From a virus (taxonomy: Duplodnaviria; Heunggongvirae; Uroviricota; Caudoviricetes): a DNA stretch of 64,000 nt. Below the pieces are notes generated by a model. That model saw nothing but the letters and a program-made list of their open reading frames with translations, did not search any database and was not told the origin of the DNA. The stretch is taken from positions 49,372 to 113,371 of the IMG/VR virus record IMGVR_UViG_3300039008_000325. One strand, 5' to 3'. Every line of letters begins with the position of its first letter. Position 1 is the stretch's first letter. This document shows, in pieces, positions 8,801 through 54,663 of the stretch. The position numbers and the translations under genes are program-made.

Positions 8801-8820
8801 ATTATAAATAATTATATAGT
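8801..8820 (+). promoter_or_regulatory. late promoter cassette
   Basis: AATTATAAATAATTATATAG, 27 nt upstream of ATG 8847. Confidence 0.6.
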
Positions 8821-8846
8821 ATAATATTTATAAGGATTAAACATCT

Positions 8847-9323
8847 ATGAGTAATTTTCATCAAAATAAGAATTTTTCGTTTACATTATCTATTGATAAT
8901 GTAGACTTCGGTAATGTTCAAAGATTTAATTTACCTGGAATAACTGTAGGTACAATAGAACAACCTACACGTTTTAAAAGTAATAATATTCCTGGTGATT
9001 CAATACTAGAAGATGATTTAAATATTACAATTCTTTTAGATGAAGATTTTATTAACTATGAACAAATTAGAAACTTAGTTCATAGAACAAATCTTTATAG
9101 TAGTGATGAACAAATCGATCCAGAAAAAAAGAGATTCGATATAGTTATTCAAATGTTTAATAATTCAAATAAAAATATAATTAATTTCAAATATACAAAT
9201 GTTATGTTAGAAAATATATCAGATATTGACATTGATTCAAATTTAGAAGATGATACAGATCCTCTTATTTTTAGTATAGTTGGAAATTTCCAGGAATTTC
9301 ACATTGAACGTAATAGTGAGTAA
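8847..9323 (+). CDS. tail-tube-like fold protein (gp19 paralogue class, e.g. tube initiator or tail completion)
   Basis: FSFTLSIDNVDFGNVQRFNLPGITVG...IPGDSILEDD follows the F.F...LPG...PGD pattern of the tube protein at 11962. Confidence 0.35.
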   Translation: MSNFHQNKNFSFTLSIDNVDFGNVQRFNLPGITVGTIEQPTRFKSNNIPGDSILEDDLNITILLDEDFINYEQIRNLVHRTNLYSSDEQIDPEKKRFDIVIQMFNNSNKNIINFKYTNVMLENISDIDIDSNLEDDTDPLIFSIVGNFQEFHIERNSE

Positions 9324-9326
9324 TAT

Positions 9327-10829
9327 ATGAATAAAAGATATGATAGAATAAATATAGATACGTTATTAGATAATTATATACCTAAAGTTGTTAATGAGCA
9401 ATATCCTTTACTTCGTGCACTATTCAAAAATTATTATGAATGGGCTTCACAAGAAGGTTTTCCTTACTATAACTCAGATAAATTATTAGATAATGCTTTT
9501 ATTGATACAACAATTGATAAATATTTAAGTTATATTTATGATGAACTAATGTCTCAATTCCCTGAAATTGAAAAAGATGAAAGATTTACATTAAAGAATA
9601 TTAGGGATTTATATACATCAAAAGGTATCACAGAATCATTTAAATATTTAAGTAAATTATTATTTAATGAATCATGTACAGTATTCTTACCTGCAGAATA
9701 TCTATTAAAATCATCAAATGGAATATATAAAAAATATTATATATTTAATACATTAGATGAAGTTGATAATTCTATTATAGGTAAAACAGTTTTATATGAA
9801 GGTAACGTTTATATAGTTAATAATATTGTAAATAAAATAAGTAATTTTAGTTATCACGAAATTGAATTAATATTAGATAATACAAAAACACCTCAACAAG
9901 AACTTACATATACTCCATTACAATGTGCAAATAATATTAATATCATTGATTCAGGTTATAATTATATTCCTGGAAATACAATATCATTAGTAGAAAATAA
10001 TACTTTCCTTGCATATATACATGAAGTAGGTAATGGTGAAGTTGATAATCTTACAATTACCAATGGTGGTATAAATTATGAGATTGGTGATGTAATCTTA
10101 TTAAAAAATAGTAATAATCTAGGTACAAGTGCTAAGTTTATAGTTGATGGAGTTGACGGTTCAGGTGCAATTACTTCAATCGAAAAAATATTTTCAGGTA
10201 GTGAATTTGATGAAGTACCTAGTATAGAGATTGTTACAGATAATGGAACATTAGCTACATTTGATATAACTCACAATATTAATCATATCAAAAGAGTTTC
10301 AATTATTAAAACAGGTGTTGATATTCAACCTACTGATACAATTCAAATTAATTCTATTGGAACAGGTGCAGTTTTAACATTTGATGTTGCAAACATTGGT
10401 TTTACAATAGTTTCTGAACAAAAATCAACAACATCTGGTGAATATAAAATACAAGATTCATTTAAGTGGCAAGATTTCTCTTATATATTACAAACAACAA
10501 AAGATTTATCTAAAGTTAATCTAGATAAATTATATAACTATAGAAAATATTTCACTGATATTGTTCACCCCGCTGGTCAAGCTATGTTCAATGAAATTAT
10601 TATTAAAGATAATATATCAATAGAAACAAGTAATAATTTATTATATTCATCAAAGTCAGGTATTTTATTAGAGATATTATTTATACATTCTAAATTAAGT
10701 GAGAATTTCACATTTGATCAAAACTTATATGAATATAAATTTACATTAATTGATGATATTAAAGATTACACATTTGAAGATTTAACAACAGTAGTAAATG
10801 GTTCTACAATACATATAGAGGATCAATAA
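9327..10829 (+). CDS. hypothetical virion structural protein
   Basis: 500 aa, repeated beta-rich segments (ITNGGINYEIGDVILL...); operon member. Confidence 0.45.
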   Translation: MNKRYDRINIDTLLDNYIPKVVNEQYPLLRALFKNYYEWASQEGFPYYNSDKLLDNAFIDTTIDKYLSYIYDELMSQFPEIEKDERFTLKNIRDLYTSKGITESFKYLSKLLFNESCTVFLPAEYLLKSSNGIYKKYYIFNTLDEVDNSIIGKTVLYEGNVYIVNNIVNKISNFSYHEIELILDNTKTPQQELTYTPLQCANNINIIDSGYNYIPGNTISLVENNTFLAYIHEVGNGEVDNLTITNGGINYEIGDVILLKNSNNLGTSAKFIVDGVDGSGAITSIEKIFSGSEFDEVPSIEIVTDNGTLATFDITHNINHIKRVSIIKTGVDIQPTDTIQINSIGTGAVLTFDVANIGFTIVSEQKSTTSGEYKIQDSFKWQDFSYILQTTKDLSKVNLDKLYNYRKYFTDIVHPAGQAMFNEIIIKDNISIETSNNLLYSSKSGILLEILFIHSKLSENFTFDQNLYEYKFTLIDDIKDYTFEDLTTVVNGSTIHIEDQ

Positions 10830-11476
10830 TGAATAATCAAATTAAAAAATATGAAAAATTAGTTGGTAAGGTTTTAAAATCTATAATTAAATTATCTAGA
10901 GATGATAAACCTGTGCAAATTAAATTTGAAAATATTTCAAAACAAGAATACTACATGCTAAAAAATCAAAATGTTGTATCAGAAAAATCAGATATAGCTG
11001 TTATTTCTAAACATTTTCCATTAGTAGCTTATAATCTAGTAGAAGTTAATTATGATACTGTTAGAGCTTTAGCTAAATCGAAAATATTAAGTAATGATAA
11101 TAAATATCAAAAAGATAAAGTTCCTGTAGAATTTATTTATGATATTAATATTGGTACAACATATAGAGAAGATTATGATCAGTTAATTCAACAATTAACA
11201 ATTTTATTTAATCCTTCAATTTTAGTTAATGTAATCATGGATGATGATATTAAAGAAAAAATAACTGTACCATTTGTATTGCAAAATATGACAAGTGAAG
11301 ATTTAATATCTAATGGTGATCTAACAGAATCAAAAGTAATCACTATTAATATGTCACTTAAAGTAAAAGGTTATTTATATCAAGACACAAATGTTCAAAA
11401 TGTTATCGATTGGGCTGAAATTGATTTTTATGCAGATGAAGAATTCGATAGAAGTATTTTAATAGGAGAGAAATAA
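10829..11476 (+). CDS. hypothetical protein
   Basis: TAATG overlap with upstream stop. Confidence 0.45.
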   Translation: MNNQIKKYEKLVGKVLKSIIKLSRDDKPVQIKFENISKQEYYMLKNQNVVSEKSDIAVISKHFPLVAYNLVEVNYDTVRALAKSKILSNDNKYQKDKVPVEFIYDINIGTTYREDYDQLIQQLTILFNPSILVNVIMDDDIKEKITVPFVLQNMTSEDLISNGDLTESKVITINMSLKVKGYLYQDTNVQNVIDWAEIDFYADEEFDRSILIGEK

Positions 11477-11907
11477 TGGATGAAAACATTCACGGAATAA
11501 AAATAGATGAAATTAATGATATAGATTTAACATCTTTACCTGCTGTTGATAAAGTATCAGATGTATTAAATGATATTGCAACATTTGAAGTGCAAGAAGA
11601 TGATGATCAATATATTAGATCATTTATTAATAACACTAATATTATGATGAATTTAGCTATTAAACTATTTAATAAACTAGAAATTTATGAATCTAATGCT
11701 GAATCACCAGAAGAAGTTATTAGACAACAACTATCACTAATAAATGTTATTAAAAATATTAATAATAATATTATTACAATTAAAAAATTATTAATTGAAT
11801 CTAAAAAAGAAAAGAAAGCAAAAGAAGGTAAAAAGATACAAGATACTCCTATCAAAACACAGGATGAAGTAGTATATTTACCACCAACAGAATTGCGTAA
11901 ATTATAG
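11476..11907 (+). CDS. hypothetical protein
   Basis: ATAATG overlap; lysine-rich C-terminus. Confidence 0.45.
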   Translation: MDENIHGIKIDEINDIDLTSLPAVDKVSDVLNDIATFEVQEDDDQYIRSFINNTNIMMNLAIKLFNKLEIYESNAESPEEVIRQQLSLINVIKNINNNIITIKKLLIESKKEKKAKEGKKIQDTPIKTQDEVVYLPPTELRKL

Positions 11908-11915: not shown

Positions 11916-11935
11916 AATTATAAATAATTATATAA
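11916..11935 (+). promoter_or_regulatory. late promoter cassette
   Basis: exact AATTATAAATAATTATATAA, 27 nt before ATG 11962. Confidence 0.65.
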
Positions 11936-11961: not shown

Positions 11962-12477
11962 ATGACAAGATCAATAAATGAATATTATAACCAATTGAAT
12001 AGAGGGTTTTCTCCTACACAATATAATGTTGTTATTAATTTACCAGATTATATTGCTAATCGTGTAGAAGCAAATCAAAAGTTTGAATTTTTAGTTAAAA
12101 ATGCTCAAGATCCTGGTGCAACTATTGGTATTACTGAAGCTCACTTCAGAAATAAAACTTTACCTATTCCTGGTGATACAACTTTTGAACCATGGGAAGG
12201 AACTGCATTAGTAGATAGAGATATGGTTATTAGAGAAGCTTTATTAGAATGGATGAAAGCTGTTAATAATTTTGAAAAAACAGGTGGATTGAGTGATATT
12301 AATGATATAACAGCTCCTGTTGTTATTCAATTATTAGATAATAATGATAATATAATTAAAGAAACAACATTAGCTAACGCTTGGTGTTCAACTGTTGGTC
12401 CTATCGATTTAAGTTTTGAATCTAAAGATACATTAGCTGAATTCCCTTTCACAATTCAATATTCACACATAGAATAA
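11962..12477 (+). CDS. tail tube protein (T4 gp19-like)
   Basis: PTQYNVVINLP...KFEFLVKNAQDPGATIG...LPIPGDTTFEPWEGT matches the T4 gp19 pattern PNLFQVEISYLGQNFTFQCKATALPAG...GDRTFDDWTVT. 171 aa. Confidence 0.8.
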   Translation: MTRSINEYYNQLNRGFSPTQYNVVINLPDYIANRVEANQKFEFLVKNAQDPGATIGITEAHFRNKTLPIPGDTTFEPWEGTALVDRDMVIREALLEWMKAVNNFEKTGGLSDINDITAPVVIQLLDNNDNIIKETTLANAWCSTVGPIDLSFESKDTLAEFPFTIQYSHIE

Positions 12478-12590: not shown

Positions 12591-12610
12591 AATTATAAAT
12601 AATTATATAA
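12591..12610 (+). promoter_or_regulatory. late promoter cassette
   Basis: exact 20-nt consensus, 28 nt before ATG 12638. Confidence 0.65.
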
Positions 12611-12637
12611 ATAAACAAATAATAAAGGAAAATAATT

Positions 12638-14656
12638 ATGCCAAAATATCAAAGTGCTGGAGTTTACGTAAGAGAGATAGACCAAAGTTCATTCGTTGAA
12701 ACAAGTGGTGGTTCTTATGTAGGTGGTGTTATTAAATCAGCTTGGGGACCGGTTGATGACATAGTATTGTTAGGTAGTATTAATGACTACGCAACAGTAT
12801 TTGGTACACCAGATCTATATGAAAGTAAATATTTTTACGCAAGTAAATCTATTTTAAGTGGAACAAATTTATACAACATCGTAAGAGTTGTTGATGAAAA
12901 TGCAAAAAATGCTACAACTAAACAAAATTATAGCTACACTGTAGATTTAACTACTGTAGTTGGTACGTTTGAAGTTGGTGAAACTGTATCAGGTGGAACG
13001 TCTGGGGCAACAGGTGTAATCGTAAGTATCGATGGTGATACATTATCATTACAAGAAGTTGTTGGTAGATTTGTTGATACAGAAACCGTAACAGGTGGTA
13101 CATCAGCAGCTACAGGTGACGTATCTGGTCAACCTTCATTCGATTATCAAATATTTATATCAAATATTGTTGGTGATTATGAAGTTGGTGAAACTGTAAC
13201 AGGTGGTACATCAGGATCAACTGGAGAATTAATTGAATTATTAAAAGAAGATGATAAAGATTACATGGTACTTAGAAGTGAAGGCATCTTCCAAGTAGGT
13301 GAAGTATTAACTGGTGGTACATCAGCAGCTACTTCTACATCTGATTCAGTAACACAAATTAACTTCTTTAATGCTGGTATCTTAATTAAAAATAATACAG
13401 ATTTTGAAAAACTTGCTTCAAAACCATTTAAATTTATTGCAGCTTATCCAGGTGAAATTGGAAATAATATTGGTTTATCAATATGTGATAAAGATTCATA
13501 CGCTAACTGGTCATATTCAGATTTATTTGATACTGCTCCAGACGAAGGTGAATTTCATATAGTTGTTATTGATACTGTTGGTAATTTTTATAATTCTCAA
13601 AAAGATAACGTTTTAGAAACGTTTGCATATGTAACTAAAACACCAGGTTCAATTGATGAACAAGGTCAAGTATCTTATTATAAAGAAGTATTAAATACAC
13701 AATCTGCTTATGTTTATGCAGGTGATATTGATTTTGAATCAACTGACTTTAATACATTAATCAATCTATTTAAAGGTTATAATGACAACTTAGCAATCGC
13801 AGATGGTACTATTGTTAATGGATATAGCTTATTAGCTGATGTTGATAGAGTTAGATTAGATTATGTTAGTATGATGGATTATAATACAACAATTACTAAT
13901 TCAGTAATCGCTAACGTTGCTGAAGTTAGAAAAGATTGTATAGTATTTGCTTCTCCTGAATTAAGTGATGTACAAGCTGCAGATCCTAAAACAGATGTTA
14001 AAACTTGGGGTGATTCAGTTACATATTCATCATATGTGTTCTTAACTTCAAACTGGTTATATGTATTAGATACATTTAATAATACAAATGTATGGGTACC
14101 TGATAATGGTGAAATTATTAGAGGTAGATGTGCTGTAGATACTAATCAAGAAGTTTGGTATTCACAAATGGGATACACAAAAGGTATTTTACAAAACGTA
14201 ATTCAAACTGCTTGGAATCCAGATAAAACCGCTAGAGATCTTTTAACACAAGCAAGTATTAACCCTGTATTTACAGAAATTGGAACAGGTACATTATTAC
14301 TTGGTGATAGAACTCACTTATCTAGAGCTAGTTATTTAAGACAACAAGGTGTTAGAAATATGTTTAATAGTATTGAAACATCTATTAGTCAATTTGCTAA
14401 ATCAATTATCGGTGAATTCAACAATGAAAGAACTAGATTAGAATTTACATTAAAAGTAACTAAGTTTATGAATGAACTATTATCTAGAGAAGCTTTTAGA
14501 GACTTTAGAGTAATTTGTGATTCATCTAATAATACTGAACAAGTAATTGCTGAACAAGGTTTTGTAGCCTTAGTTAAAGTGTTACCTAATTCAAGTGTTA
14601 ACTGGGTTGAACTTACTTTTACACCAGTTGCATTTTCTAGTCAACTAGATAGTTAA
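12638..14656 (+). CDS. tail sheath protein (T4 gp18-like)
   Basis: N-terminal SAGVYVREIDQSS matches the sheath hallmark PGVYVxExD. 672 aa against 659 aa for T4 gp18. Carries four GETVTGGTSGATG-type insertion repeats. Confidence 0.88.
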   Translation: MPKYQSAGVYVREIDQSSFVETSGGSYVGGVIKSAWGPVDDIVLLGSINDYATVFGTPDLYESKYFYASKSILSGTNLYNIVRVVDENAKNATTKQNYSYTVDLTTVVGTFEVGETVSGGTSGATGVIVSIDGDTLSLQEVVGRFVDTETVTGGTSAATGDVSGQPSFDYQIFISNIVGDYEVGETVTGGTSGSTGELIELLKEDDKDYMVLRSEGIFQVGEVLTGGTSAATSTSDSVTQINFFNAGILIKNNTDFEKLASKPFKFIAAYPGEIGNNIGLSICDKDSYANWSYSDLFDTAPDEGEFHIVVIDTVGNFYNSQKDNVLETFAYVTKTPGSIDEQGQVSYYKEVLNTQSAYVYAGDIDFESTDFNTLINLFKGYNDNLAIADGTIVNGYSLLADVDRVRLDYVSMMDYNTTITNSVIANVAEVRKDCIVFASPELSDVQAADPKTDVKTWGDSVTYSSYVFLTSNWLYVLDTFNNTNVWVPDNGEIIRGRCAVDTNQEVWYSQMGYTKGILQNVIQTAWNPDKTARDLLTQASINPVFTEIGTGTLLLGDRTHLSRASYLRQQGVRNMFNSIETSISQFAKSIIGEFNNERTRLEFTLKVTKFMNELLSREAFRDFRVICDSSNNTEQVIAEQGFVALVKVLPNSSVNWVELTFTPVAFSSQLDS

Positions 14657-14711: not shown

Positions 14712-14741
14712 TTTGATTTATTACTAAAAATAAGGTATAAT

Positions 14742-14761
14742 AATTATAAATAACTATATAA
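14742..14761 (+). promoter_or_regulatory. late promoter cassette (1 mismatch)
   Basis: AATTATAAATAACTATATAA. Confidence 0.55.
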
Positions 14762-14785: not shown

Positions 14786-15034
14786 ATGGATAAAATATTA
14801 GAGAAAAAAGCACCAACAAAAAATCATAGATATAAAGATCACTTAGTTAGTTATGATGGTGGATTATATTCAGTTTATAATTTAAGTCAAACACAAGTAA
14901 TATTAGAAACAGATAATTATGATAGAGTTATAAAATTTATTGATAAATTAGATAAAGATATTCAAAAGAAAAAGAAAAAATCTATGAAAGAAGATAATGA
15001 TATATTAGAAAGAATGAAATCATTTCTAAACTAA
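14786..15034 (+). CDS. hypothetical protein
   Basis: 82 aa, GGTTAGGAAAAATG SD. Confidence 0.4.
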   Translation: MDKILEKKAPTKNHRYKDHLVSYDGGLYSVYNLSQTQVILETDNYDRVIKFIDKLDKDIQKKKKKSMKEDNDILERMKSFLN

Positions 15035-15082: not shown

Positions 15083-15159
15083 CGCGGGATAGAGCAGTCG
15101 GGTAGCTCAACAGGCTCATAACCTGTAGGTCGCTGGTTCAAATCCAGCTCCCGCAACCA
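15083..15159 (+). tRNA. tRNA-Met (CAU), initiator-like
   Basis: cloverleaf with anticodon loop CTCATAA and acceptor C1:A72 mismatch (bacterial initiator hallmark). Confidence 0.75.
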
Positions 15160-15214
15160 AAAGATAGTTGATTTCATTTTTAAAAGTTATATAATATAAT
15201 TATAGAGGAAATTA

Positions 15215-15267
15215 CTATTAACCTTTTATAAATAATTATACAGTAACTATTTATAAAAGGTTAATAG
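15215..15267 (+). promoter_or_regulatory. perfect 20-bp inverted repeat hairpin containing a late -10 box and sequestering the SD of the downstream HNH gene
   Basis: left arm CTATTAACCTTTTATAAATA (15215-15234), right arm TATTTATAAAAGGTTAATAG (15248-15267). TATAAATA at 15227-15234. AAGG SD lies in the right arm, ATG at 15268. Confidence 0.6.
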
Positions 15268-15942
15268 ATGAATTATAAAAGAATTTACAATGAAATCATA
15301 GAAAATAGAATAAATAATCCATTTAAAGGTTATACAGAAACACATCATATTTTACCTAGATCATTAGGTGGATCAGATGAAAAAGAAAATTTAGTTAAAT
15401 TGAGTGCTAGAGAACATTTCATATGTCACTTACTTTTAACTAAAATACATAAAGATGATACTATTGAACATTATAAGATGTTAAATGCATTTATTATGAT
15501 GAAAATGAATAGTAATACACAAGATAGATATTTTAATAGTTATTTATATGAAAAAATAAGAATAAAATACTCTAAAATGCAAAGTAAAAAACAATCTGGT
15601 AAAGGTAATAACCAGTATGGTAAAATGTGGATTACAAATGGAAAAGATAATAAATTAATTTATAGAGATAATTCAATACCGGTTGGTTGGAAAAAAGGTC
15701 GTAAATTAAAATCACCTAAAACAGATGCTCTAAATGAAAAATTTAGGAAAAGAAAACAAAAAACAGCATCTAAAAAATTACAAACAACTTTAATGTATGA
15801 AGAATATTATAAAATTTATTGTGAATATGGTTGGGAAAAATTTAAAGAAATAACCGATTATAAATTTTCTCAACAAAATTTAGTAATGCAGTTTAAACAT
15901 CGTGTTAAAGATTACACATCACAACGCGGTAGAAAAAGATAG
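15268..15942 (+). CDS. HNH homing endonuclease
   Basis: TETHHILPRSLGGSDEKENLVKLSAREHFICH His-Me finger; paralogue of 18388 (both begin MNYKR(I/L)YNEIIENR). Confidence 0.85.
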   Translation: MNYKRIYNEIIENRINNPFKGYTETHHILPRSLGGSDEKENLVKLSAREHFICHLLLTKIHKDDTIEHYKMLNAFIMMKMNSNTQDRYFNSYLYEKIRIKYSKMQSKKQSGKGNNQYGKMWITNGKDNKLIYRDNSIPVGWKKGRKLKSPKTDALNEKFRKRKQKTASKKLQTTLMYEEYYKIYCEYGWEKFKEITDYKFSQQNLVMQFKHRVKDYTSQRGRKR

Positions 15943-15943
15943 A

Positions 15944-16017
15944 GGGTTCATAATTCAATGGTAGAATAACCGACTTTTAATCGGTTTACCTAAGTTCGAT
16001 TCTTAGTGAACCCACCA
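15944..16017 (+). tRNA. tRNA-Lys (UUU)
   Basis: acceptor GGGTTCA/TGAACCC, anticodon stem ACCGA/TCGGT, loop CTTTTAA; starts 2 nt after the HNH stop. Confidence 0.75.
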
Positions 16018-16030
16018 AATATTTAATTGT

Positions 16031-16107
16031 ATACCTGTAGTTCAGATGGATAGAACAACAGATTTCTAATCTGTAGGTCATAGGTTCGAGTCCTATCAGG
16101 TATGCCA
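16031..16107 (+). tRNA. tRNA-Arg (UCU)
   Basis: acceptor ATACCTG/CAGGTAT, anticodon loop TTTCTAA, T-arm ATAGG-TTCGAGT-CCTAT. Confidence 0.8.
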
Positions 16108-16117
16108 GTTTTAAGAT

Positions 16118-16194
16118 GGTGTTTGTAGCTCAATTGGTAGAGTGTTTCCTTGTGATGGAAGATGTTGCGAGTTCGAGTCTCGTCAAACACCCCA
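16118..16194 (+). tRNA. tRNA-His (GUG)
   Basis: extra G-1, acceptor GTGTTTG/CAAACAC, discriminator C, loop TTGTGAT. Confidence 0.8.
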
Positions 16195-16205
16195 TTTTAA
16201 TTTGA

Positions 16206-16244
16206 GGACTTGTAGCTCAGGTGGTTAGAGCACTAGACTGATTT
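16206..16244 (+). pseudogene. 5' tRNA fragment (acceptor + D-arm + half anticodon arm, loop CTGATTT), truncated at promoter cassette
   Basis: GGACTTG-TA-GCTC-AGGTGGTTA-GAGC then breaks inside anticodon loop where AATTATAAATAATTATATAA begins. D-arm nearly identical to tRNA-Ile at 20688. Confidence 0.55.
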
Positions 16245-16247
16245 TAA

Positions 16248-16267
16248 AATTATAAATAATTATATAA
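16248..16267 (+). promoter_or_regulatory. late promoter cassette
   Basis: exact consensus; followed by AAGGAATATAATTATG leader shared with genes at 38941 and 53518. Confidence 0.65.
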
Positions 16268-16282
16268 TAAAGGAATATAATT

Positions 16283-16990
16283 ATGAATAATATAAAAATT
16301 GATGAATCTTGGAAACAAGAAAGTGGTAAATATAAATGCCCATATTGTGATAAGGAATATACTAAAAAAGGTATATGTACACATATATGGAGAAAACATA
16401 CAGAAGAAGGTTTAAATTTTACTAAATTACACGATCCAAATAAAGGTTTTAAAGATGGTACTAGAAAAGCTTGGAATAAAGGTTTAACTAAAGAAACTGA
16501 CACAAGGTTAGAAGAAAAAAGTATTAAGTTGCGAGAAAAATTTAATAGTGGTGAATTAGAGGGTTATTGGAAAAATAAAAAACATTCTAACTCTACAATA
16601 ATAAAGATGAAAAATAATAAAAATTGTGGAGGATATAGAAAAGGGTCAGGTAGAGGTAAATCTGGCTGGTATAAAAATTATTATTGTGATAGTAGTTGGG
16701 AATTAGCTTTTGTAATTTATAATTTAGAAAACAATATAAAATTTGAAAGAAATACTAAAAAATTTAGTTATATATTTAATAGAAAAAAACATGATTATAT
16801 GCCGGATTTTATTATCAATAACGAATATATAGAAATAAAAGGTTACATAACTGAACAATGGAAAGCTAAAAAAGAACAATTTCCACATAAGTTAAAAACA
16901 TTATATCAAAAAGATATACAAAAATATTTAGATTATGTGATTAATAAATATGGAAAAGATTTTATTAAATTATACGGCTCTCTAGCTTAG
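16283..16990 (+). CDS. putative homing endonuclease: N-terminal C2H2-like zinc finger, NUMOD3-like repeats, C-terminal PD-(D/E)xK-like domain
   Basis: CPYCDKEYTKKGICTHIWRKH; WNKGLTKETD and KHSNSTIIKM NUMOD3-like; C-terminal H.Y.PDF...IEIKG; last codons overlap tRNA-Phe. Confidence 0.5.
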   Translation: MNNIKIDESWKQESGKYKCPYCDKEYTKKGICTHIWRKHTEEGLNFTKLHDPNKGFKDGTRKAWNKGLTKETDTRLEEKSIKLREKFNSGELEGYWKNKKHSNSTIIKMKNNKNCGGYRKGSGRGKSGWYKNYYCDSSWELAFVIYNLENNIKFERNTKKFSYIFNRKKHDYMPDFIINNEYIEIKGYITEQWKAKKEQFPHKLKTLYQKDIQKYLDYVINKYGKDFIKLYGSLA

Positions 16991-17051
16991 TTGGTCTGAG
17001 CGCTCGATTGAAGCTCGAGAGGTTCTGGTTCGAATCCAGGGGGAGCCACCA
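16976..17051 (+). tRNA. tRNA-Phe (GAA)
   Basis: acceptor GGCTCTC/GGGAGCC, anticodon stem CTCGA/TCGAG, loop TTGAAGC. Confidence 0.75.
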
Positions 17052-17052
17052 A

Positions 17053-17355: not shown

Positions 17356-17431
17356 GGGATGTAGCTCAGTTGATTAGAGCACTGCACTGTCACTGCAGAG
17401 GTCGCCGGTTTGAGCCCGGTCATTCCCGCCA
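17355..17431 (+). tRNA. tRNA-Asp (GUC)
   Basis: 77 nt, anticodon stem CTGCA/TGCAG, loop CTGTCAC. Confidence 0.8.
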
Positions 17432-17437
17432 GTTTAA

Positions 17438-17514: not shown

Positions 17515-17521
17515 AGATAAT

Positions 17522-17598: not shown

Positions 17599-17630
17599 GT
17601 TAATATAAAACATTTGAAAAGGGAGATAAA

Positions 17631-18351: not shown

Positions 18352-18371
18352 AATTATAAATAATTATATAA
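18352..18371 (+). promoter_or_regulatory. late promoter cassette
   Basis: exact consensus 17 nt before ATG 18388. Confidence 0.65.
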
Positions 18372-18387
18372 TAGGAGTTATATAATT

Positions 18388-18957
18388 ATGAACTATAAAA
18401 GACTTTACAATGAAATAATAGAAAATAGAAAACAAAACCCAATTAAAGGCTATACTGAAAAACATCATATTATACCAAGAAGCCTAAATGGAACTGATGA
18501 GAAAGAAAACTTAGTTAATCTAACAGCTAGAGAACATTTCATTTGCCATTATTTACTAACTAAAATGTATGATAAAAGAACAAACAATCATTATAAATTA
18601 GTTTGTGCATTTAATATGATGAATATGAGTGGAGAATATCACACAAGGTATTTTAACAGTTATTTATATGAAGCAAATAAAATACAATTTTCTAAATTAC
18701 AAAGTAAAAACCAAAAAGGTCAAAAAAATTCTCAATTTGGTAAAATGTGGATTACTAATGGAAAAGATAATAAAAAAATTCGAAAAGATGAAATTATTCC
18801 TGAAGGTTTTAGAAAGGGTAGGGTCATACCTAAAGAAATAAAAGAAAAAATAAGAAAATCTATGAAAGGTGTTGGTGTTGGTCGTGTTCGAAGTGATAAA
18901 ACAAAAGCAAAAATAAGTCGAACATTGAAATTGAGACACAGATCAATAAATTTATAG
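18388..18957 (+). CDS. HNH homing endonuclease
   Basis: TEKHHIIPRSLNGTDEKENLVNLTAREHFICH; stop overlaps first nt of tRNA-Ser. Confidence 0.85.
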   Translation: MNYKRLYNEIIENRKQNPIKGYTEKHHIIPRSLNGTDEKENLVNLTAREHFICHYLLTKMYDKRTNNHYKLVCAFNMMNMSGEYHTRYFNSYLYEANKIQFSKLQSKNQKGQKNSQFGKMWITNGKDNKKIRKDEIIPEGFRKGRVIPKEIKEKIRKSMKGVGVGRVRSDKTKAKISRTLKLRHRSINL

Positions 18958-24481: not shown

Positions 24482-24501
24482 AATTATAAATAATTATATA
24501 A
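24482..24501 (+). promoter_or_regulatory. late promoter cassette
   Basis: exact consensus 26 nt before ATG 24527. Confidence 0.65.
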
Positions 24502-37073: not shown

Positions 37074-37093
37074 AATTATAAATAATTATATAA
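37074..37093 (+). promoter_or_regulatory. late promoter cassette
   Basis: exact consensus 16 nt before ATG 37110. Confidence 0.6.
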
Positions 37094-37631: not shown

Positions 37632-37651
37632 AATTATAAATAATTATATAA
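37632..37651 (+). promoter_or_regulatory. late promoter cassette
   Basis: exact consensus before GIY-YIG gene. Confidence 0.65.
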
Positions 37652-37675
37652 TAAACGAAAATATAAGGATTTATA

Positions 37676-38461
37676 ATGTATTATATAATTTACAAAATTA
37701 CTAACAGTTTAAATGATAAATTTTATATAGGTCAACATAGAACAAATAATTTAGAAGATGGTTATATGGGAAGTGGTTTATATATTAAAAATGCAAAGAA
37801 TAAATATAAAGAAGAATTTATTAAAATATTCAAAAAAGAAATATTAGAATATTGTGATAATTTTGATGATATGCAAATAAAAGAGGAATATTATATTAAA
37901 AATGAATATGATAATCCTCTTTGCACTAATATAAGATATGGTGGAAGTCAATCAATACATAGTGAAAAAACTAAAGAAAAGTTAAGTGAGTCACATAAGG
38001 GTAAAAAACTATCTAATGAACACAAAAATAAAATTCGTCAAGCTAATTTAGGTAAAGTTTTATCTCAAGAAACAAAAGATAAAATATCAAATTCTAAAAA
38101 ATTAAACATGACAGATGATATTAGAAAAAAGATATCAAAAGCAAGTAAAAATAGAAAAGTTTCACAAGAAACAAAAGATAAAATATCAAAAGCTAATAAA
38201 GGTAGAATTTTAGGTTCTCCATCTGAAAATACTAGGAAAAAGATATCAGATGCAACAAAAGGAAAACTTGTAAGTCAAGCCACTAAAGAAAAAATCAGTA
38301 TAGCTAGAAAAGGTTTAAAAAGATTAGATAGCACTAAATTAAAAATTTCAGAAAAACTTAAAAATAAATCAATTGAAATACATAAATGTCCTCATTGTGG
38401 TAAAGAAGGTAAAGGTCCAATTATGTTTAGATTTCATTTCCATAATTGTAAGAAGAAATAA
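37676..38461 (+). CDS. GIY-YIG homing endonuclease with NUMOD3 repeats
   Basis: YIIYKITNSLNDKFYIGQ...GYMGSG; five S..TK.KIS NUMOD3-like repeats; C-terminal CPHCG...HNC zinc finger. Confidence 0.8.
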   Translation: MYYIIYKITNSLNDKFYIGQHRTNNLEDGYMGSGLYIKNAKNKYKEEFIKIFKKEILEYCDNFDDMQIKEEYYIKNEYDNPLCTNIRYGGSQSIHSEKTKEKLSESHKGKKLSNEHKNKIRQANLGKVLSQETKDKISNSKKLNMTDDIRKKISKASKNRKVSQETKDKISKANKGRILGSPSENTRKKISDATKGKLVSQATKEKISIARKGLKRLDSTKLKISEKLKNKSIEIHKCPHCGKEGKGPIMFRFHFHNCKKK

Positions 38462-38870: not shown

Positions 38871-38890
38871 TATTATAAATAATTATATAA
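38871..38890 (+). promoter_or_regulatory. late promoter cassette (plus second TATAAATA at 38909)
   Basis: TATTATAAATAATTATATAA then CTTATAAATAAA; AAGGAATATAATTATG leader. Confidence 0.6.
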
Positions 38891-39643: not shown

Positions 39644-39663
39644 AATTATAAATAATTATATAA
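39644..39663 (+). promoter_or_regulatory. late promoter cassette
   Basis: exact consensus before prohead protease gene. Confidence 0.65.
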
Positions 39664-41157: not shown

Positions 41158-41177
41158 AATTATAAATAATTATATAA
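41158..41177 (+). promoter_or_regulatory. late promoter cassette (followed by degenerate second copy 41195-41217)
   Basis: exact consensus. Confidence 0.6.
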
Positions 41178-46149: not shown

Positions 46150-46216
46150 TGATTAACTCCTTACGTTAATTTTTGTTTAGAATGGTATAAGTGTTGGTGC
46201 ATTTATACCTTTCGCT

Positions 46217-46236
46217 TTATATAATTATTTATAATT
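46217..46236 (-). promoter_or_regulatory. late promoter cassette on minus strand (drives HNH gene 45406-46149)
   Basis: TTATATAATTATTTATAATT is exact reverse complement of the consensus. Confidence 0.6.
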
Positions 46237-46247: not shown

Positions 46248-46267
46248 AATTATAAATAATTATATAA
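46248..46267 (+). promoter_or_regulatory. late promoter cassette (drives terminase gene); divergent with 46217-46236
   Basis: exact consensus 10 nt before TAAGGAG SD. Confidence 0.65.
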
Positions 46268-46277: not shown

Positions 46278-47858
46278 ATGAGTATGAAAGATAATAGAGA
46301 TATCAACGGTAAAGAGTTATATTATAATAGGATAGAAGGTCTACGTAATAATAATGTAATAACACCTACATCTCTACAACAAGTTGAAGAAATTAAAAAA
46401 TGTCAAAATAGTTTTGAATATTTCTGTCGTAATTACTTTACAATTGTAACATTAGATAAAGGTGAGTGTTTATTTGAACCTTATGATTATCAAATAGAGT
46501 TCGCTGATTTAATTGAAGAAAATAGATTCGTTGTTGGTATGATGGCTAGACAGTTAGGTAAAGGTACAATTGTAACAGCTATATTAACATGGTATATGTT
46601 ATTTAAAAAAGATTATTCAGTTACTTATCTAGCACATGATCATAAAACAGCAATAGAAATGTTAAAGAGAATAAAATTAGCTTATTCATTACTACCAATG
46701 TGGTTACAAGTTGGTGTAACTAAATGGAATGAAAAATCAATTGAATTTGAAAATGGTTGTAGATTAGATGCTGCTGCTTGTACAGAAACCGCTGCTCGTG
46801 GTAGTTCTAGAAACATGATTGTATTAGACGAGTTCGCTTTCGTTAGATCAACTATTTCATCTGAATTCTTATCATCAGTTATACCTGCATTATCATCAGG
46901 TAGAAATACAAAATTAGTTATATTCTCTACACCAAATGGATTTAATGCATTTAGTAAGATATTTATCGATGCACAAAATGGTAAAAACGACTTTAAATGG
47001 ATTAAAAAAGATTGGAGAGCAATTCCAACAAGAGATGATAAATGGGCTAAGACTCAAAGAGATATCATGGGTGATGAGAAGTTTAATCAAGAGCACGAAT
47101 TAGAAATTTTAGGATCATCAGCAACACTATTAGATGCAGAATCATTAAATAAATTAAATAAAATAACACCTGTTTATGAAAATTCAGAACTAAGTGTTTA
47201 TGAACATCCTCAAGAAAAACATAGATATATAATCGGTGTCGATGTTGCTAGAGGTTTAGGTAAAGATTATACAGTTTGTCAAGTAGTAGATTATACAGAA
47301 TATCCATATAAGCAAGTTGCTATATTTAGATGTAATAAAACATCATATTTATTTATGCCAAAAATTATAAGTGATTTAGGTGTACATTATAATAATGCAA
47401 AGGTAATAGTAGAAGGTAATGATTTAGGTCAATCTGTAAGTGACTCATTATTTTATGGTACTGATGAAATGTCAGAATATGAAAATTTATTAGGTACAGG
47501 TAAAGATCCACATTCGGGTCAAATCATATTAAATGGAGTTAAAGATTTTAGAACATGTTTAATTACTACTAATAGAACAAAACTTTTAGGTTGTCGAAAA
47601 CTAAGAGAATTGATTAAATATGATAAACTTAAAATATATGATAAGTCAACAATTGAAGAATTCTACACATTTGTAGAAACAAACAGTGGTTATGCTGCTG
47701 AAGATCCAAATCATGATGACACTATTATGGGACTAGCTCTTATTGCTTGGTGTTTCTCACAAAAACAATTTATTGATGAAATTGAAAGCGACGTTTATGG
47801 TGATATCGCTGTGGAAAATGATGTTTGTTTAGCATTCAAAGATGCTAACACATTCTAA
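46278..47858 (+). CDS. terminase large subunit (T4 gp17-like)
   Basis: [20 protein letters not shown] matches the T4 gp17 pattern [38 protein letters not shown] matches AVRGNSFAMIYIDECAFI. C-terminal nuclease block [14 protein letters not shown] matches YHDDLVMSLVIFGW. Confidence 0.93.
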   Translation: [526 protein letters not shown]

Positions 47859-47859: not shown

Positions 47860-47879
47860 AATTATAAATAATTATATAA
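47860..47879 (+). promoter_or_regulatory. late promoter cassette
   Basis: exact consensus 18 nt before ATG 47898. Confidence 0.65.
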
Positions 47880-52894: not shown

Positions 52895-53479
52895 ATGGCA
52901 GATAAAACACAAGATGTATTTAGCGATATACAATCGTTTGCAACCTTAAGAGGTTTTACTAGTGATAAAACTAAAAAATCTATTAAGTGGTATCAAGATC
53001 AAGTATCTCAATTTCAAAATATTAAACGTTTTGATATATTAGCAAGTAATAAGAAAAATCAAAGAGCAACTATTAAACCTGGAACAATGGCATTTTATTT
53101 CTATTCTCCAAAGATGAAAAAAGAGTTACCTTATTATGATACATTTCCATTAATAATTTATGTTGAACCCGCAGATGGTGGTTGGTATGGTCTTAATATG
53201 CACTATTTACCACCTGCACTCAGAGCTAAATTATATACTAAACTATTAAAATATAATTCGGAAAATAAATTTGATTTATCATATCAATTATTAAAATCAC
53301 TTGGTAATATATGGAAACCTGCTTTCAAAAGATACCTTAAGAAACAAGTTAAATCAAATTTTGTAATTGTTCCTGAAGAAAGTATGACAGCTAGTATATT
53401 TTTACCGGTTGCTAGTTGGAAAGGTGCAACACAGTCTCAAATATGGAAAGATAGTAGGAAGCAACTGGTAAAAACATAA
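52895..53479 (+). CDS. hypothetical protein
   Basis: 194 aa. Confidence 0.4.
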   Translation: MADKTQDVFSDIQSFATLRGFTSDKTKKSIKWYQDQVSQFQNIKRFDILASNKKNQRATIKPGTMAFYFYSPKMKKELPYYDTFPLIIYVEPADGGWYGLNMHYLPPALRAKLYTKLLKYNSENKFDLSYQLLKSLGNIWKPAFKRYLKKQVKSNFVIVPEESMTASIFLPVASWKGATQSQIWKDSRKQLVKT

Positions 53480-53498
53480 ATTATAAATAATTATATAA
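53479..53498 (+). promoter_or_regulatory. late promoter cassette (overlaps stop of upstream gene)
   Basis: exact consensus + AAGGAATATAATTATG leader. Confidence 0.65.
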
Positions 53499-53517
53499 CT
53501 TAAAAAGGAATATAATT

Positions 53518-54195
53518 ATGAAAAGACAATATAAATATTTTTATATATATAAAATAACAAATCTAATAACAAATAAAATATACATAGGTCAAAAAAGATC
53601 TTTTAAACACCCTTCTTGTGACGGGTATATGGGAAGTGGTAAATGTTTAAAAAATTCTATAAATAAACATGGTATTGAACATTTTAAAAAAGATATTTTA
53701 GAAGAATTCGATAATGAATCACTTTTAAATGAAAGAGAAATATATTGGATTGATAAACTAGATGCTACTGATATTAATATAGGTTATAATATATCTAGAG
53801 GTGGTATAGGTGGAACTGGACACAAAGGTTGTAAACATTCTAAAGAATCCAGAGATAAAATGTCTAAAAAATTAAAAGGTAGAACTGCATGGAATAAAGG
53901 TAAAAAATTACCACCTATGTCTGATGAACAAAAAGAAAAAAGAAGAATAAAAGCTCAAGGTAAAAAACATTATCATAATCCATTAACATTAGAGCAAAAA
54001 TGTTTAATACCAGGAACACAACCAATTGGTTGGATTTTAGGTATGAATCCAAAATCAGTTGAAAAGAGAAGACAAACAGTATTACAAGAAAAAACATATA
54101 AGGGAAATAAACACCCTATGTATGGTAAAAAACACACTGAGCAATCTAAGAAAAAAATGTCTCTTTCTTCAAGAAAAATGGCTACAGGGAAGTAA
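53518..54195 (+). CDS. GIY-YIG homing endonuclease
   Basis: YFYIYKITNLITNKIYIGQ...GYMGSG; NUMOD3-like HSKESRDKMS. Confidence 0.8.
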   Translation: MKRQYKYFYIYKITNLITNKIYIGQKRSFKHPSCDGYMGSGKCLKNSINKHGIEHFKKDILEEFDNESLLNEREIYWIDKLDATDINIGYNISRGGIGGTGHKGCKHSKESRDKMSKKLKGRTAWNKGKKLPPMSDEQKEKRRIKAQGKKHYHNPLTLEQKCLIPGTQPIGWILGMNPKSVEKRRQTVLQEKTYKGNKHPMYGKKHTEQSKKKMSLSSRKMATGK

Positions 54196-54583
54196 GTATG
54201 ATCTTTTCTAGATCATCTACTTCCTTTCTGTCTATAATTATATTATTAGGTTTACCTTTGACAGTATACTTAACAAGTATTTCATCTTGACCGTGTGCAA
54301 TTAACGATTCAATTACAACACCTTCAGCTTTTTCTTTTATTTTTTGTTGAGCTTTTTGTTCTTCAATTCTTTTCTTAATAAATTTACTACAACAACTATA
54401 ACATTCTGATTCAAAAACATCATTAAATGTTCTAAATTTTTTAATACACATTGAAAGTGTAGGTGTTCCTTTACCTTTAATCTTTTGATAAATTGCATTA
54501 TCATAATTATCAATTTCTAATACAACAAAATTAACTGTATTATCATATAAATCTTTTGCAATAGCATAATATTTTTTACTCAT
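54182..54583 (-). CDS. hypothetical protein
   Basis: 133 aa minus strand, 14-nt tail overlap with GIY-YIG gene. Confidence 0.4.
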   Translation of the reverse strand: MSKKYYAIAKDLYDNTVNFVVLEIDNYDNAIYQKIKGKGTPTLSMCIKKFRTFNDVFESECYSCCSKFIKKRIEEQKAQQKIKEKAEGVVIESLIAHGQDEILVKYTVKGKPNNIIIDRKEVDDLEKIILTSL

Positions 54584-54643
54584 AACTTATCCTTCTAATC
54601 TTTCTTATATTATAGTATATTTTTCAACTATCATCAACTAAAA

Positions 54644-54663
54644 AATTATAAATAATTATATAA
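54644..54663 (+). promoter_or_regulatory. late promoter cassette followed by hairpin 54670-54697
   Basis: exact consensus; downstream AGATATAAATG-CGCTAA-CATTTATATCT stem-loop then AAGAAGGA SD. Confidence 0.6.

What the first reader, a model, noticed from the sequence alone, without database searches (positions are those of the whole stretch)
8801..54663. A 20-nt late promoter repeated about 19 times as a portable promoter-leader cassette, also driving every homing endonuclease
AATTATAAATAATTATATAA, containing the T4 gp55-type -10 box TATAAATA, occurs exactly or with one mismatch at 4711, 8801, 11916, 12591, 14742, 16248, 18352, 24482, 37074, 37632, 38871, 39644, 41158, 46248, 47860, 53479 and 54644. 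It occurs on the minus strand at 46217, and as a half-site in the hairpin at 15227. It is always 16-30 nt upstream of an ATG. Three unrelated genes (16283, 38941, 53518) share the identical leader AAGGAATATAATTATG. The element precedes structural genes (tube, sheath, protease, capsid module, terminase). It also precedes all five HNH and both GIY-YIG endonuclease genes. It is far longer than the 8-bp T4 late box, which implies extra recognition. A gp55-like sigma factor gene lies at 159-845. Divergent copies at 46217/46248 form a bidirectional late promoter.
Basis: partly seen in the sequence, partly recalled or inferred. Interest (0 to 1): 0.6.

Follow-up and report, generated by a model that had tools for sequence, protein, structure and literature searches.

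The report
Long invariant T4-type late promoter
An uncultured, very AT-rich T4-like phage marks its virion genes and its selfish endonuclease genes with an almost invariant 20-base version of the 8-base T4 late promoter; this is a known kind of switch in an unusually long and rigid form.

Summary
AATTATAAATAATTATATAA occurs 19 times in the window with at most one mismatch (14 exact, 5 one-mismatch), against 0.13 expected. Every copy is intergenic and points at the gene behind it. The downstream genes are virion, packaging and lysis genes plus six of seven homing-endonuclease genes. DNA-metabolism genes lack the motif and instead carry a TTGATT-N16-17-TATAAT promoter.

A gp55-family late sigma is encoded at 159-845(-). 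The best reading is a gp55-type late promoter spanning about -16 to +4.

New here: in five endonuclease genes the leader is complementary to the promoter itself. Read-through RNA would bury the ribosome-binding site, while RNA started inside the motif would not. This is the known T4 e / I-TevI / segB / mobE design, and it explains the "shared leader".

The promoter is the left end of the mobile endonuclease cassettes. Nothing shows portability at structural genes.

What is unusual is the length and invariance: about 25 bits against about 13 needed, whereas T4 sites share only about 3 bits outside the 8-mer. The promoter stays identical between paralogs that are only 32-47% identical. A relative conserves just the first ~14 nt. 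Extra recognition is plausible but unproven. New variant of a known kind; moderate interest.

The parts
4711..4730 (+). 20-mer copy (1 mismatch), upstream of portal gene 4746-6245
8800..8819 (+). 20-mer copy (1 mismatch), upstream of tube-like gene 8847-9323
11916..11935 (+). exact copy, upstream of tail tube gene 11962-12477
12591..12610 (+). exact copy, upstream of tail sheath gene 12638-14656; its 3' end plus ATA forms a second overlapping TATAAATA at 12606
14742..14761 (+). copy (1 mismatch) upstream of 82-aa ORF 14786-15034; directly preceded by an early-type TTGATT-N17-TATAAT promoter at 14713-14741
15224..15243 (+). degenerate copy (perfect 15-nt core TTATAAATAATTATA, 4 mismatches to the 20-mer) for HNH gene 15268-15942
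15207..15266 (+). perfect ~20-bp hairpin: the 5' arm ends with the TATAAATA box, the 3' arm covers the Shine-Dalgarno and abuts the ATG of HNH 15268; an early-type promoter lies upstream at 15168-15195
16248..16267 (+). exact copy, left end of the zinc-finger endonuclease cassette (gene 16283-16990); abuts a truncated tRNA 5' half (~16206-16241)
16249..16291 (+). predicted read-through hairpin pairing the motif 3' half with leader ATATAATT and covering SD/AUG of 16283
   Evidence: leader-shuffle fraction 0.065
18352..18371 (+). exact copy upstream of HNH gene 18388-18957
18360..18389 (+). 13-bp hairpin (motif 3' half against TTATATAATT) with the SD in a 4-nt loop and the AUG in the stem
   Evidence: shuffle fraction 0.025
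24482..24501 (+). exact copy upstream of baseplate wedge gene 24527-25804
37074..37093 (+). exact copy upstream of 108-aa ORF 37110-37436
37632..37651 (+). exact copy upstream of GIY-YIG gene 37676-38461
37633..37677 (+). predicted read-through hairpin pairing the box and 3' half with the leader, covering SD/AUG of 37676
   Evidence: shuffle fraction 0.005
38871..38890 (+). copy (1 mismatch) just after terminator 38834-38867; 50 nt upstream of 180-aa ORF 38941-39483; a second TATAAATA lies at 38909
39644..39663 (+). exact copy just after terminator 39595-39625; upstream of prohead protease gene 39686-40321
41158..41177 (+). exact copy, distal member of a tandem pair before the head module (41238 -> scaffold 42004 -> major capsid 42815)
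46217..46236 (-). exact copy, left end of the endoVII-like HNH cassette (gene 45406-46149, minus strand) with a 67-nt leader
46248..46267 (+). exact copy upstream of large terminase 46278-47858; the SD starts at motif position 21, so the transcript start cannot lie beyond about position 20
47860..47879 (+). exact copy upstream of 174-aa ORF 47898, followed by endolysin 48451 and neck/baseplate genes
53479..53498 (+). exact copy overlapping the stop codon of gp2-like gene 52895-53479; upstream of GIY-YIG gene 53518-54195
53487..53519 (+). predicted read-through hairpin (motif 3' half against leader ATATAATT) covering SD/AUG of 53518
   Evidence: shuffle fraction 0.010
54644..54663 (+). exact copy, left end of the second endoVII-like HNH cassette (54731-55312), followed without a gap by large structural-type ORFs 55319, 58470 and 60157->
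159..845 (-). gp55-family late sigma factor gene (228 aa, ~75 residues longer than T4 gp55)
3681..3714 (+). degenerate promoter+leader duplicate (3 mismatches in the 20-mer; 82% identical over 34 nt to 4711-4744)

Best explanation
The 20-mer is this phage's late-class promoter. Host core RNA polymerase carrying the phage gp55-family sigma (159-845) would melt it at the embedded TATAAATA box (motif positions 4-11, equivalent to -13..-6). It would start transcription at about motif position 17, so the conserved block spans roughly -16 to +4. This gives short 14-31-nt leaders for virion, packaging and lysis operons. The same element is the 5' end of the free-standing homing-endonuclease cassettes. 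In five of those genes the leader, or sequence around the box, is complementary to the promoter. RNA reading through from upstream then folds a hairpin over the Shine-Dalgarno and AUG and is translationally silent. RNA initiated inside the motif lacks the 5' arm and is translated, so endonuclease is made late only. Shown here: the sequence family, its placement and orientation, the gene classes, the sigma homology, the complementarity and the cassette boundaries. Inferred: the start site, late timing, sigma dependence and translational repression. The unusual length is inferred to reflect selection for specificity in a 25%-GC genome where the 8-mer occurs by chance. About 14 nt are under long-term constraint and the 3' ATATAA is lineage-specific.
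For: (1) 19 copies against 0.13 expected, with a discrete mismatch distribution. (2) All copies are intergenic and co-oriented with the gene behind them. (3) Downstream genes are portal, tube, sheath, baseplate wedge, prohead protease, the head module with scaffold and major capsid, TerL and the endolysin operon. (4) No copy precedes nrdG/nrdD, ligase, dNMP kinase, RtcB, the helicases, or the UvsY/primase/exonuclease module in 10 kb left of the window. Those gaps carry a different TTGATT-N16-17-TATAAT promoter. (5) The exact T4 box is embedded, and T4 places it at -13..-6 (PMC1524935, PMC2988020). (6) The 159-845 product hits phrog_234 'late sigma' (E 8e-24), T4 gp55 7D7C chain F as best PDB match (E 2.6e-5) and annotated gp55 genes in 557 phage records. 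Pocket residues F86, Y97 and T99 of T4 gp55 (PMC7892883) are identical in the alignment. (7) No conservation exists upstream of the block, so there is no -35 element, as in T4. (8) The start site is bracketed by sequence alone. The TerL SD begins at position 21, so the start is at or before ~20. The hairpin 5' arms occupy positions ~9-20, so the start must be at or after ~13 to free the ribosome-binding site. (9) Promoter-leader complementarity exceeds leader shuffles at four endonuclease genes (fractions 0.065, 0.025, 0.005, 0.010). 15268 has a perfect 20-bp hairpin with an early-type promoter upstream. None of 12 non-endonuclease genes reaches 0.1; 5 of 7 against 0 of 12 gives Fisher p ~0.002, with a post-hoc threshold. 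HNH paralogs 15268 and 18388 reach the same fold with unrelated leaders. (10) Paralogous endonuclease genes have diverged to 32-63% amino-acid identity, yet their promoters remain 20/20 or 15/20 identical, which argues for selection rather than recent copying. (11) Relative L027 (portal 44%, sigma 42% identical) has A(A/T)TTATAAATAATT before both portal and tube.
Against: There are no transcript data: start site, timing and sigma dependence are all inferred. gp33 and gp45 homologues were not found in the ~80 kb visible. The genome contig is 141 kb, so they may lie elsewhere. AU-only sequences pair easily, so the hairpin statistics are modest and the threshold was chosen after seeing the data. 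The two endoVII-like HNH genes and several structural genes show no start-site-dependent change in accessibility. Information content is about twice what site frequency requires, which the promoter function alone does not obviously explain. Only two promoters are available from the nearest relative.
Confidence: 0.8

Rival explanations
1. The invariance of all 20 positions reflects copy-and-paste spread or ongoing gene conversion among copies, for example carried by mobile endonuclease cassettes, rather than base-specific recognition. The functional promoter would then be only the ~8-14-nt core.
For: Six copies belong to mobile endonuclease cassettes whose homology starts at the motif. The relative conserves only the first ~14 nt. 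Other AT-rich T4-like contigs share only T-TATAAATA-AT. T4 needs only 8 bp (PMC2988020).
Against: Flanks of the copies are unrelated right up to positions 1 and 20, and conversion tracts would not stop so precisely without flanking homology. Promoters stay identical while the attached paralogous ORFs have diverged to 32-47% identity. The few variants cluster at positions 1, 13, 14 and 20, with none at 2-12 or 15-19, which looks like graded constraint.
Confidence: 0.2
2. The repeats act primarily as recombination or homing junctions, a late-promoter analogue of PeSL cassettes. They would be short identical sequences at which modules and endonuclease genes are swapped, or targets of the resident endonucleases.
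For: Endonuclease cassettes begin exactly at the motif. Gene order around portal and tube differs from the relative, with a motif at the junctions. A 34-nt promoter+leader duplication brackets a 1-kb insert at 3681/4711. PeSLs are a precedent in T4-like phages (PMC4122927).
Against: The strict orientation toward downstream genes, the fixed spacing to start codons and the restriction to late-type genes are promoter properties, not junction properties. The element has no stem-loop component. 20 bp is short for homologous exchange. No cleavage data exist.
Confidence: 0.07
3. The element works at the RNA level within polycistronic transcripts, as an AU-rich processing site or a translational enhancer upstream of the Shine-Dalgarno, and not as a promoter.
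For: It lies 10-27 nt upstream of most start codons and would be transcribed in any read-through RNA. It is pure A/U.
Against: Exact invariance of A versus T at 20 positions is not expected for such elements. It contains the exact T4 late box next to a gp55 gene. Copies directly follow intrinsic terminators at 38871 and 39644. The divergent pair at 46217/46248 cannot both be in one RNA. The hairpin logic only makes sense if transcripts start inside the element.
Confidence: 0.04
4. The 20-mer is read by a different polymerase or factor, such as a phage-encoded RNA polymerase with a T7-like long promoter, and the embedded TATAAATA is coincidental.
For: The length, sharp edges, span (~-16 to +4) and excess information resemble single-subunit RNAP promoters. 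61 kb of the 141-kb genome was not visible.
Against: No RNAP gene appears in 80 kb. The core module is T4-like and includes a gp55 homologue with conserved box-reading residues. The relative keeps the TATAAATA-containing part, not the rest.
Confidence: 0.03

Closest known systems
Bacteriophage T4 late promoters (TATAAATA at -13..-6; gp55 sigma, gp33 co-activator, gp45 sliding clamp)
   Same: Identical 8-bp core, no -35 element, an AT-rich melted segment downstream of the box, position in front of virion/packaging/lysis genes on either strand, and a gp55 homologue encoded nearby (PMC2988020, PMC1524935).
   Different: Here 20 positions are fixed, not 8. In 50 kb of the T4 late region no 12-mer recurs more than 3 times and the 17 TATAAATA sites share ~3 bits of flanking information, against ~25 bits for the whole block here. 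The sigma is ~75 residues longer. gp33 and gp45 partners were not seen.
Late promoter inside an RBS-sequestering hairpin: T4 e, soc, 49, I-TevI/II/III, segB; Aeromonas phage Aeh1 mobE
   Same: The SD/AUG is paired in RNAs coming from upstream. The late box lies in the 5' strand of the structure, so late transcripts lack it. The design is used for homing endonucleases, including one in the tRNA cluster, as with T4 segB (PMC3014915, PMC2988022).
   Different: In four genes the 5' arm is the invariant promoter itself (positions ~9-20), so unrelated genes converge on the same leader, ATATAATT-ATG. Six of seven endonuclease genes carry a perfect late promoter, whereas in T4 seven are promoter-less and only two endonuclease-specific promoters are late (PMC2988022).
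PeSL (promoter-early stem-loop) mobile regulatory cassettes of T4-type phages
   Same: A short conserved regulatory sequence repeated at gene boundaries and found at the edges of variable or mobile genes (PMC4122927, PMC2839356).
   Different: PeSLs combine a terminator stem-loop with an early promoter and lie in hyperplastic regions. This element is a late promoter without a stem-loop and mostly precedes conserved core genes.
Long promoters of single-subunit phage RNA polymerases (T7/T3/SP6 class; own knowledge)
   Same: A ~20-23-bp, sharply bounded, near-invariant block running through the start site, with more information than site frequency requires.
   Different: No such polymerase is in evidence. 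The block contains the T4 late box, and the genome is T4-like with a gp55 sigma.

Membership tests
gp55-dependent (T4-type) late promoter | TATAAATA (or near variant) -10-like box | tested here: met
   The exact box is at positions 4-11 of all 19 copies and of the 4 degenerate copies.
gp55-dependent (T4-type) late promoter | No conserved -35 element | tested here: met
   Information content is ~0 from -25 to -2 relative to the block.
gp55-dependent (T4-type) late promoter | Located 5' of, and co-oriented with, orthologues of T4 late genes; absent before early/middle genes | tested here: met
   Non-late genes carry TTGATT-N16-17-TATAAT instead.
gp55-dependent (T4-type) late promoter | A gp55-family sigma encoded by the phage | tested here: met
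   phrog_234 E 8e-24; T4 gp55 7D7C_F E 2.6e-5 with F86/Y97/T99 identical (PMC7892883); 557 annotated gp55 records. There is no Pfam hit.
gp55-dependent (T4-type) late promoter | Transcription starts ~6 nt downstream of the box, late in infection | not testable with these tools
   Only bracketed indirectly to motif positions ~13-20 by the TerL SD and the hairpin arms.
gp55-dependent (T4-type) late promoter | Activation through gp33 co-activator and gp45 sliding clamp | tested here: inconclusive
   No gp33 or gp45 homologue was recognised among the genes scanned in ~80 kb.
Late-promoter-in-hairpin translational control (T4 e / I-TevI / segB / mobE type) | RNA helix covering SD and/or AUG in upstream-initiated transcripts | tested here: met
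   15268 has a perfect 20-bp stem. At 16283, 18388, 37676 and 53518 the unpaired fraction of SD..AUG is 0.19-0.42 in read-through RNA, beyond leader shuffles. Not met for the two endoVII-like HNH genes.
Late-promoter-in-hairpin translational control (T4 e / I-TevI / segB / mobE type) | Late promoter placed so that late transcripts lack the 5' strand of the helix | tested here: met
   The box or motif 3' half forms the 5' arm. RNA from position 17 raises the unpaired fraction to 0.45-0.88. This depends on the inferred start site.
Late-promoter-in-hairpin translational control (T4 e / I-TevI / segB / mobE type) | An upstream earlier-class promoter that supplies the silent read-through RNA | tested here: inconclusive
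   A TTGATT-N16-TATAAT match lies at 15168 upstream of the 15268 hairpin. For the other four genes read-through would come from upstream operons and was not shown.
PeSL mobile regulatory cassette | Composite of terminator stem-loop plus early promoter | tested here: not met
   The repeated unit has no stem-loop and no sigma-70-type hexamers, and its flanks are unconserved.
Free-standing homing-endonuclease cassette | HNH or GIY-YIG nuclease ORF inserted between conserved genes as a self-contained unit | tested here: met
   HNH/GIY-YIG/NUMOD3 domains. Paralog homology is bounded by motif position 1 and the stop codon. The 16283 cassette replaces the 3' half of a tRNA gene. Nuclease activity and homing were not testable.

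The most novel reading that the evidence does not exclude
The gp55-family sigma of this lineage, with its ~75 extra and largely basic residues, reads about 14-20 nucleotides: an upstream AAT, the box, the -5..-3 ATT and the start-site ATATAA. T4 gp55 reads 8. This would be an evolved answer to the problem that TATAAATA occurs by chance about every 2 kb in a 25%-GC genome. It would be the first gp55-type system with discriminator or start-site sequence recognition, and the fixed 3' half would double as a universal 5' arm for translational gating of selfish endonuclease genes.
Probability: 0.3. Interest if true: 0.55.

Novelty: new variant of a known kind. Interest (0 to 1): 0.4.

Why it matters
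T4 late transcription is a textbook oddity: an 8-bp promoter, a minimal sigma and a sliding clamp as activator. This phage shows the same system in a genome where 8 AT base pairs cannot be specific, with a promoter 2.5 times longer and a longer sigma. That makes one question directly testable: how does a gp55-type holoenzyme gain specificity, through extra protein-DNA contacts or through start-site and bubble sequence? The element also gives an unusually clean natural example of selfish endonuclease genes carrying a host-regulon promoter as their own left end, and using that promoter's sequence as half of a translational lock. On the practical side, the 20-mer is a ready annotation tool for late genes in this uncultured lineage.

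Tried and rejected
**Searches that gave nothing useful**
- The exact 20-mer in IMG/VR gave 24 single chance hits on AT-rich or giant-virus contigs and no multi-copy relative.
The one two-copy contig (L055, 19.7% GC) is an unrelated duplicated block. That scan was largely wasted.
- Megablast and tblastn against deposited phages found no close relative; the sheath is <38% identical.
- A portal-based locus search in IMG/VR found nothing.
- The homolog search with the sigma returned only itself.
- A literature search for the extended sequence found no phage paper.

**Analyses that failed or were uninformative**
- The single-sequence AlphaFold model of the sigma had pLDDT 37.5 and is unusable. No fold search was attempted.
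- Independent assemblies of the phage are 100% identical to the window, so there is no polymorphism test of constraint.
- The sigma-70 consensus scan is not enriched overall in this AT-rich DNA. Only the specific TTGATT-N16-17-TATAAT subset in gaps looked meaningful.
- The 1-kb insert at 3609-4745 has no Rfam hit and no endonuclease remnant.
- CP220 was not a useful comparison for late promoters. It has only 4 TATAAATA sites in 50 kb.

**Readings I rejected or downgraded**
- A group I intron or split tRNA around 16283: no intron hit and no 3' tRNA half.
- My reading of 18291-18349 as a truncated tRNA-Gly was not supported statistically (score 19 against a null of 17±2) and is downgraded.
- A start site driven by the second half-box TTATATAA: it would begin inside or after the TerL Shine-Dalgarno.

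Full report
**Observation**

AATTATAAATAATTATATAA occurs 19 times in the window at up to two mismatches, against 0.13 expected from dinucleotide-preserving shuffles. Fourteen copies are exact and five have one mismatch. None has two mismatches and a single site has three, so this is a discrete family rather than the tail of an AT-rich background. The bare T4 box TATAAATA is barely enriched (45 against 31.4 expected). Nineteen of those 45 lie in the copies, four in degenerate copies and two are formed by a copy's 3' end plus ATA. The remaining ~20 are at or below chance.

All copies lie in the ~8.5% of the window that is intergenic and face the downstream gene. Information content is ~1.3 bits at each of the 20 positions and about zero on both sides. 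The total is ~25 bits against the ~12.7 bits needed to specify 19 sites in 128 kb of two-strand sequence. The sum is inflated by how the sites were chosen, but the sharp edges are not.

**Context**

The window is 25% GC. It comes from an uncultured T4-like myovirus: JGI contig Ga0495723_43156, 141 kb, also present in Logan assemblies. There is no close relative among deposited phages or in IMG/VR.

PHROG and Pfam scans give this map:
- **Genes behind the motif:** portal, two tube-family genes, sheath, a baseplate wedge gene, prohead protease, the head module (scaffold, major capsid), large terminase, and an operon with endolysin, neck and baseplate genes. Also six endonuclease genes: zinc-finger endonuclease 16283, HNH 18388, GIY-YIG 37676 and 53518, and endoVII-like HNH 45406(-) and 54731. 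Four small ORFs of unknown function complete the list.
- **Genes without the motif:** nrdG/nrdD, DNA ligase, dNMP kinase, RtcB, the two helicases and the sigma gene. The same holds for 10 kb left of the window that encode UvsY, primase, a chaperonin, an exonuclease and RusA.

Gaps without the 20-mer instead carry a recurrent TTGATT-N16-17-TATAAT sequence at 27469, 28592, 36824, 45316(-) and 24467(-). The same sequence stands in tandem upstream of the late copies at 14742 and 15224. One more one-mismatch copy lies 1.3 kb beyond the right edge.

**The sigma factor**

The 159-845(-) product matches PHROG 234 'late sigma transcription factor' (E 8e-24). Its best solved-structure match is T4 gp55 (7D7C chain F, E 2.6e-5), and it hits annotated gp55 genes in 557 phage records at 33-38% identity.

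In the gp55 alignment, F86, Y97 and T99 are identical and R114 aligns to K. These residues form the pockets for the flipped non-template bases at -12, -9 and -8 (PMC7892883). The protein is ~75 residues longer than T4 gp55. No database gp55 covers its first ~80 residues, but the extra length is conserved in the one relative (42% identity over the full length). A single-sequence structure model failed (pLDDT 37.5).

**Mechanism**

With T4 geometry (box at -13..-6; PMC1524935, PMC2988020) the start site is motif position 17 and the block spans -16 to +4. Two features of the sequence bracket the start independently:
- The terminase Shine-Dalgarno begins at position 21, so the start cannot lie beyond about position 20.
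- The hairpins described next only make sense if the start is at or after about position 13.

The 'half-site' at 15227 sits in the 5' arm of a perfect 20-bp hairpin (15207-15266). Its 3' arm contains the Shine-Dalgarno and abuts the ATG of HNH gene 15268, and an early-type promoter lies at 15168.

At 16283, 18388, 37676 and 53518 the leader is complementary to the promoter itself, for example motif AATTATATAA against leader TTATATAATT. In RNA reading through from upstream, the SD..AUG segment is 19-42% unpaired. In RNA started at position 17 it is 45-88% unpaired. Leader shuffles reach the observed occlusion in 6.5%, 2.5%, 0.5% and 1% of trials. None of twelve non-endonuclease genes shows this. 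The comparison 5 of 7 against 0 of 12 gives Fisher p ~0.002, though the threshold was chosen after seeing the data.

This is the design documented for T4 e, soc, 49, I-TevI/II/III and segB and for Aeh1 mobE (PMC3014915, PMC2988022). It explains why unrelated genes share the leader AAGGAATATAATTATG. The HNH paralogs 15268 and 18388 reach the same fold with unrelated leader sequences, which points to selection on the structure.

**Portability**

The two endoVII-like HNH cassettes are homologous from exactly motif position 1 to the stop codon, with unrelated flanks. The 16248 copy abuts the 5' half of a tRNA gene (alignment score 40 against a shuffled maximum of 24), so there the promoter arrived with the cassette. 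A similar reading for 18352 was not statistically supported.

At structural genes nothing beyond the 20-mer is shared. So 'portable cassette' applies to the endonucleases only.

**Why 20 nt**

In 50 kb of the T4 late region no 12-mer recurs more than three times, and 17 TATAAATA sites share ~3 bits of flanking information. T4 promoters are described as 8 bp plus an AT-rich melted segment (PMC2988020).

Here the promoter stays 20/20 identical between paralogous endonuclease genes that are only 32% (GIY-YIG) and 47% (endoVII-like) identical in protein. The few variants fall only at positions 1, 13, 14 and 20. That argues for constraint rather than recent copying.

The nearest relative (portal 44% identical) has A(A/T)TTATAAATAATT before portal and tube and diverges after position 14. 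Other AT-rich T4-like contigs share only T-TATAAATA-AT. My inference is that ~14 nt are under long-term selection, most likely for specificity in a genome where the 8-mer is common by chance. The start-site hexamer ATATAA is then a lineage-specific fixation of unknown cause. Extended recognition by the enlarged sigma is plausible but untested. Independent assemblies are identical, so no polymorphism test was possible.

**Verdict**

This is a real and well-delimited late-promoter regulon, with a known style of endonuclease gating. It is notable for the length and rigidity of the promoter and for its uniform capture by selfish genes. It is a new variant of a known kind, of moderate interest.

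Noticed in passing
window 3609-4745: A 1.1-kb ORF-free gap lies between the divergent helicase and portal genes. It is bracketed by a 34-nt direct repeat of promoter+leader (3681-3714 against 4711-4744, 82% identical). The relative has only 111 nt here. There is no Rfam hit and no endonuclease remnant, yet both strands fold better than shuffles (z -3.6 and -5.7). It could be a structured RNA gene, a decayed mobile element or an origin.
   Followed up: partly
window 46128-46147 (+) and 54733-54752 (-): The perfect 15-nt promoter core TTATAAATAATTATA lies antisense across the first codons (MSIIIYK) of both endoVII-like HNH paralogs. It points outward, toward TerL in one case and toward the minus-strand ORF 54182-54583 in the other. 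On that strand the conserved leader hairpin plus a T-rich run scores as terminator-like (46184-46209; 54700-54667). This may be an embedded outward promoter, as described for some T4 seg/mob genes, or a short cis-antisense RNA over the endonuclease ribosome-binding site. Both readings are speculative.
   Followed up: partly
window 46150-46216 (-) and 54664-54730 (+): The 67-nt leaders of the two endoVII-like HNH genes are more conserved than the ORFs. They contain two hairpins kept by compensatory changes (G-C to A-U in the first; C-G to U-A in the small one that holds the Shine-Dalgarno). Their accessibility does not depend on the start site, so this is a different and unexplained form of control.
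   Followed up: partly
window 15083-20857: A cluster of 18 tRNA genes is interleaved with three endonuclease genes (15268, 16283, 18388) and several small ORFs. A tRNA 5' half (~16206-16241) is cut in the anticodon loop exactly at the promoter edge. The 16283 ORF overlaps the start of tRNA-Phe, and the 18388 ORF ends where tRNA-Ser begins. This recalls T4 segB in its tRNA cluster.
   Followed up: partly
window 14713, 15168, 27469, 28592, 36824 (+); 24467, 45316, 54972 (-): A second recurrent promoter-like sequence, TTGATT-N16-17-TATAAT, appears mostly in intergenic gaps that lack the 20-mer and before non-late genes. It is probably the early, host-sigma class. At 14713 its -10 hexamer directly abuts the late 20-mer.
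   Followed up: partly
window 159-845 (-); L027 944-1633 (-): The gp55-like sigma is ~75 residues longer than T4 gp55. The extra part is lysine- and arginine-rich, is conserved in the only relative, and is covered by none of 557 database gp55 genes.
   Followed up: partly
window 12606-12613 and 39659-39666: At the sheath and prohead-protease genes the last five bases of the 20-mer plus ATA create a second, overlapping TATAAATA box 12 nt downstream of the first. The 20-mer is also an imperfect tandem of two 10-mers (AATTATAAAT / AATTATATAA, 8 of 10 identical).
   Followed up: no
window 33503-36053 and 44245-45267 (-): An RNA-repair set is present: RtcB ligase (34890), a tRNA-amidotransferase-like protein (33503) and a polynucleotide-kinase-like ATPase (44245, minus strand). 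Together with the large tRNA cluster this suggests a counter-defence against host anticodon nucleases.
   Followed up: no
window 20877-24239; L025 13861-15459: Anaerobic ribonucleotide reductase genes nrdG and nrdD (with a DUF7338-like ORF between them) point to an anaerobic, AT-rich host. A Cpn60/GroEL-family chaperonin gene lies just left of the window.
   Followed up: no
window 60157 to beyond the right edge (L150 11688-16619): A 1,643-aa ORF follows the 1,052-aa and 558-aa ORFs, all without an intervening promoter after the 54644 copy. This would be a >10-kb late operon that begins with a homing-endonuclease gene.
   Followed up: no
window 24273-24404 (-): A small 44-codon minus-strand ORF with its own early-type promoter (24467) and a terminator is nested between nrdD and the baseplate late promoter.
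   Followed up: no
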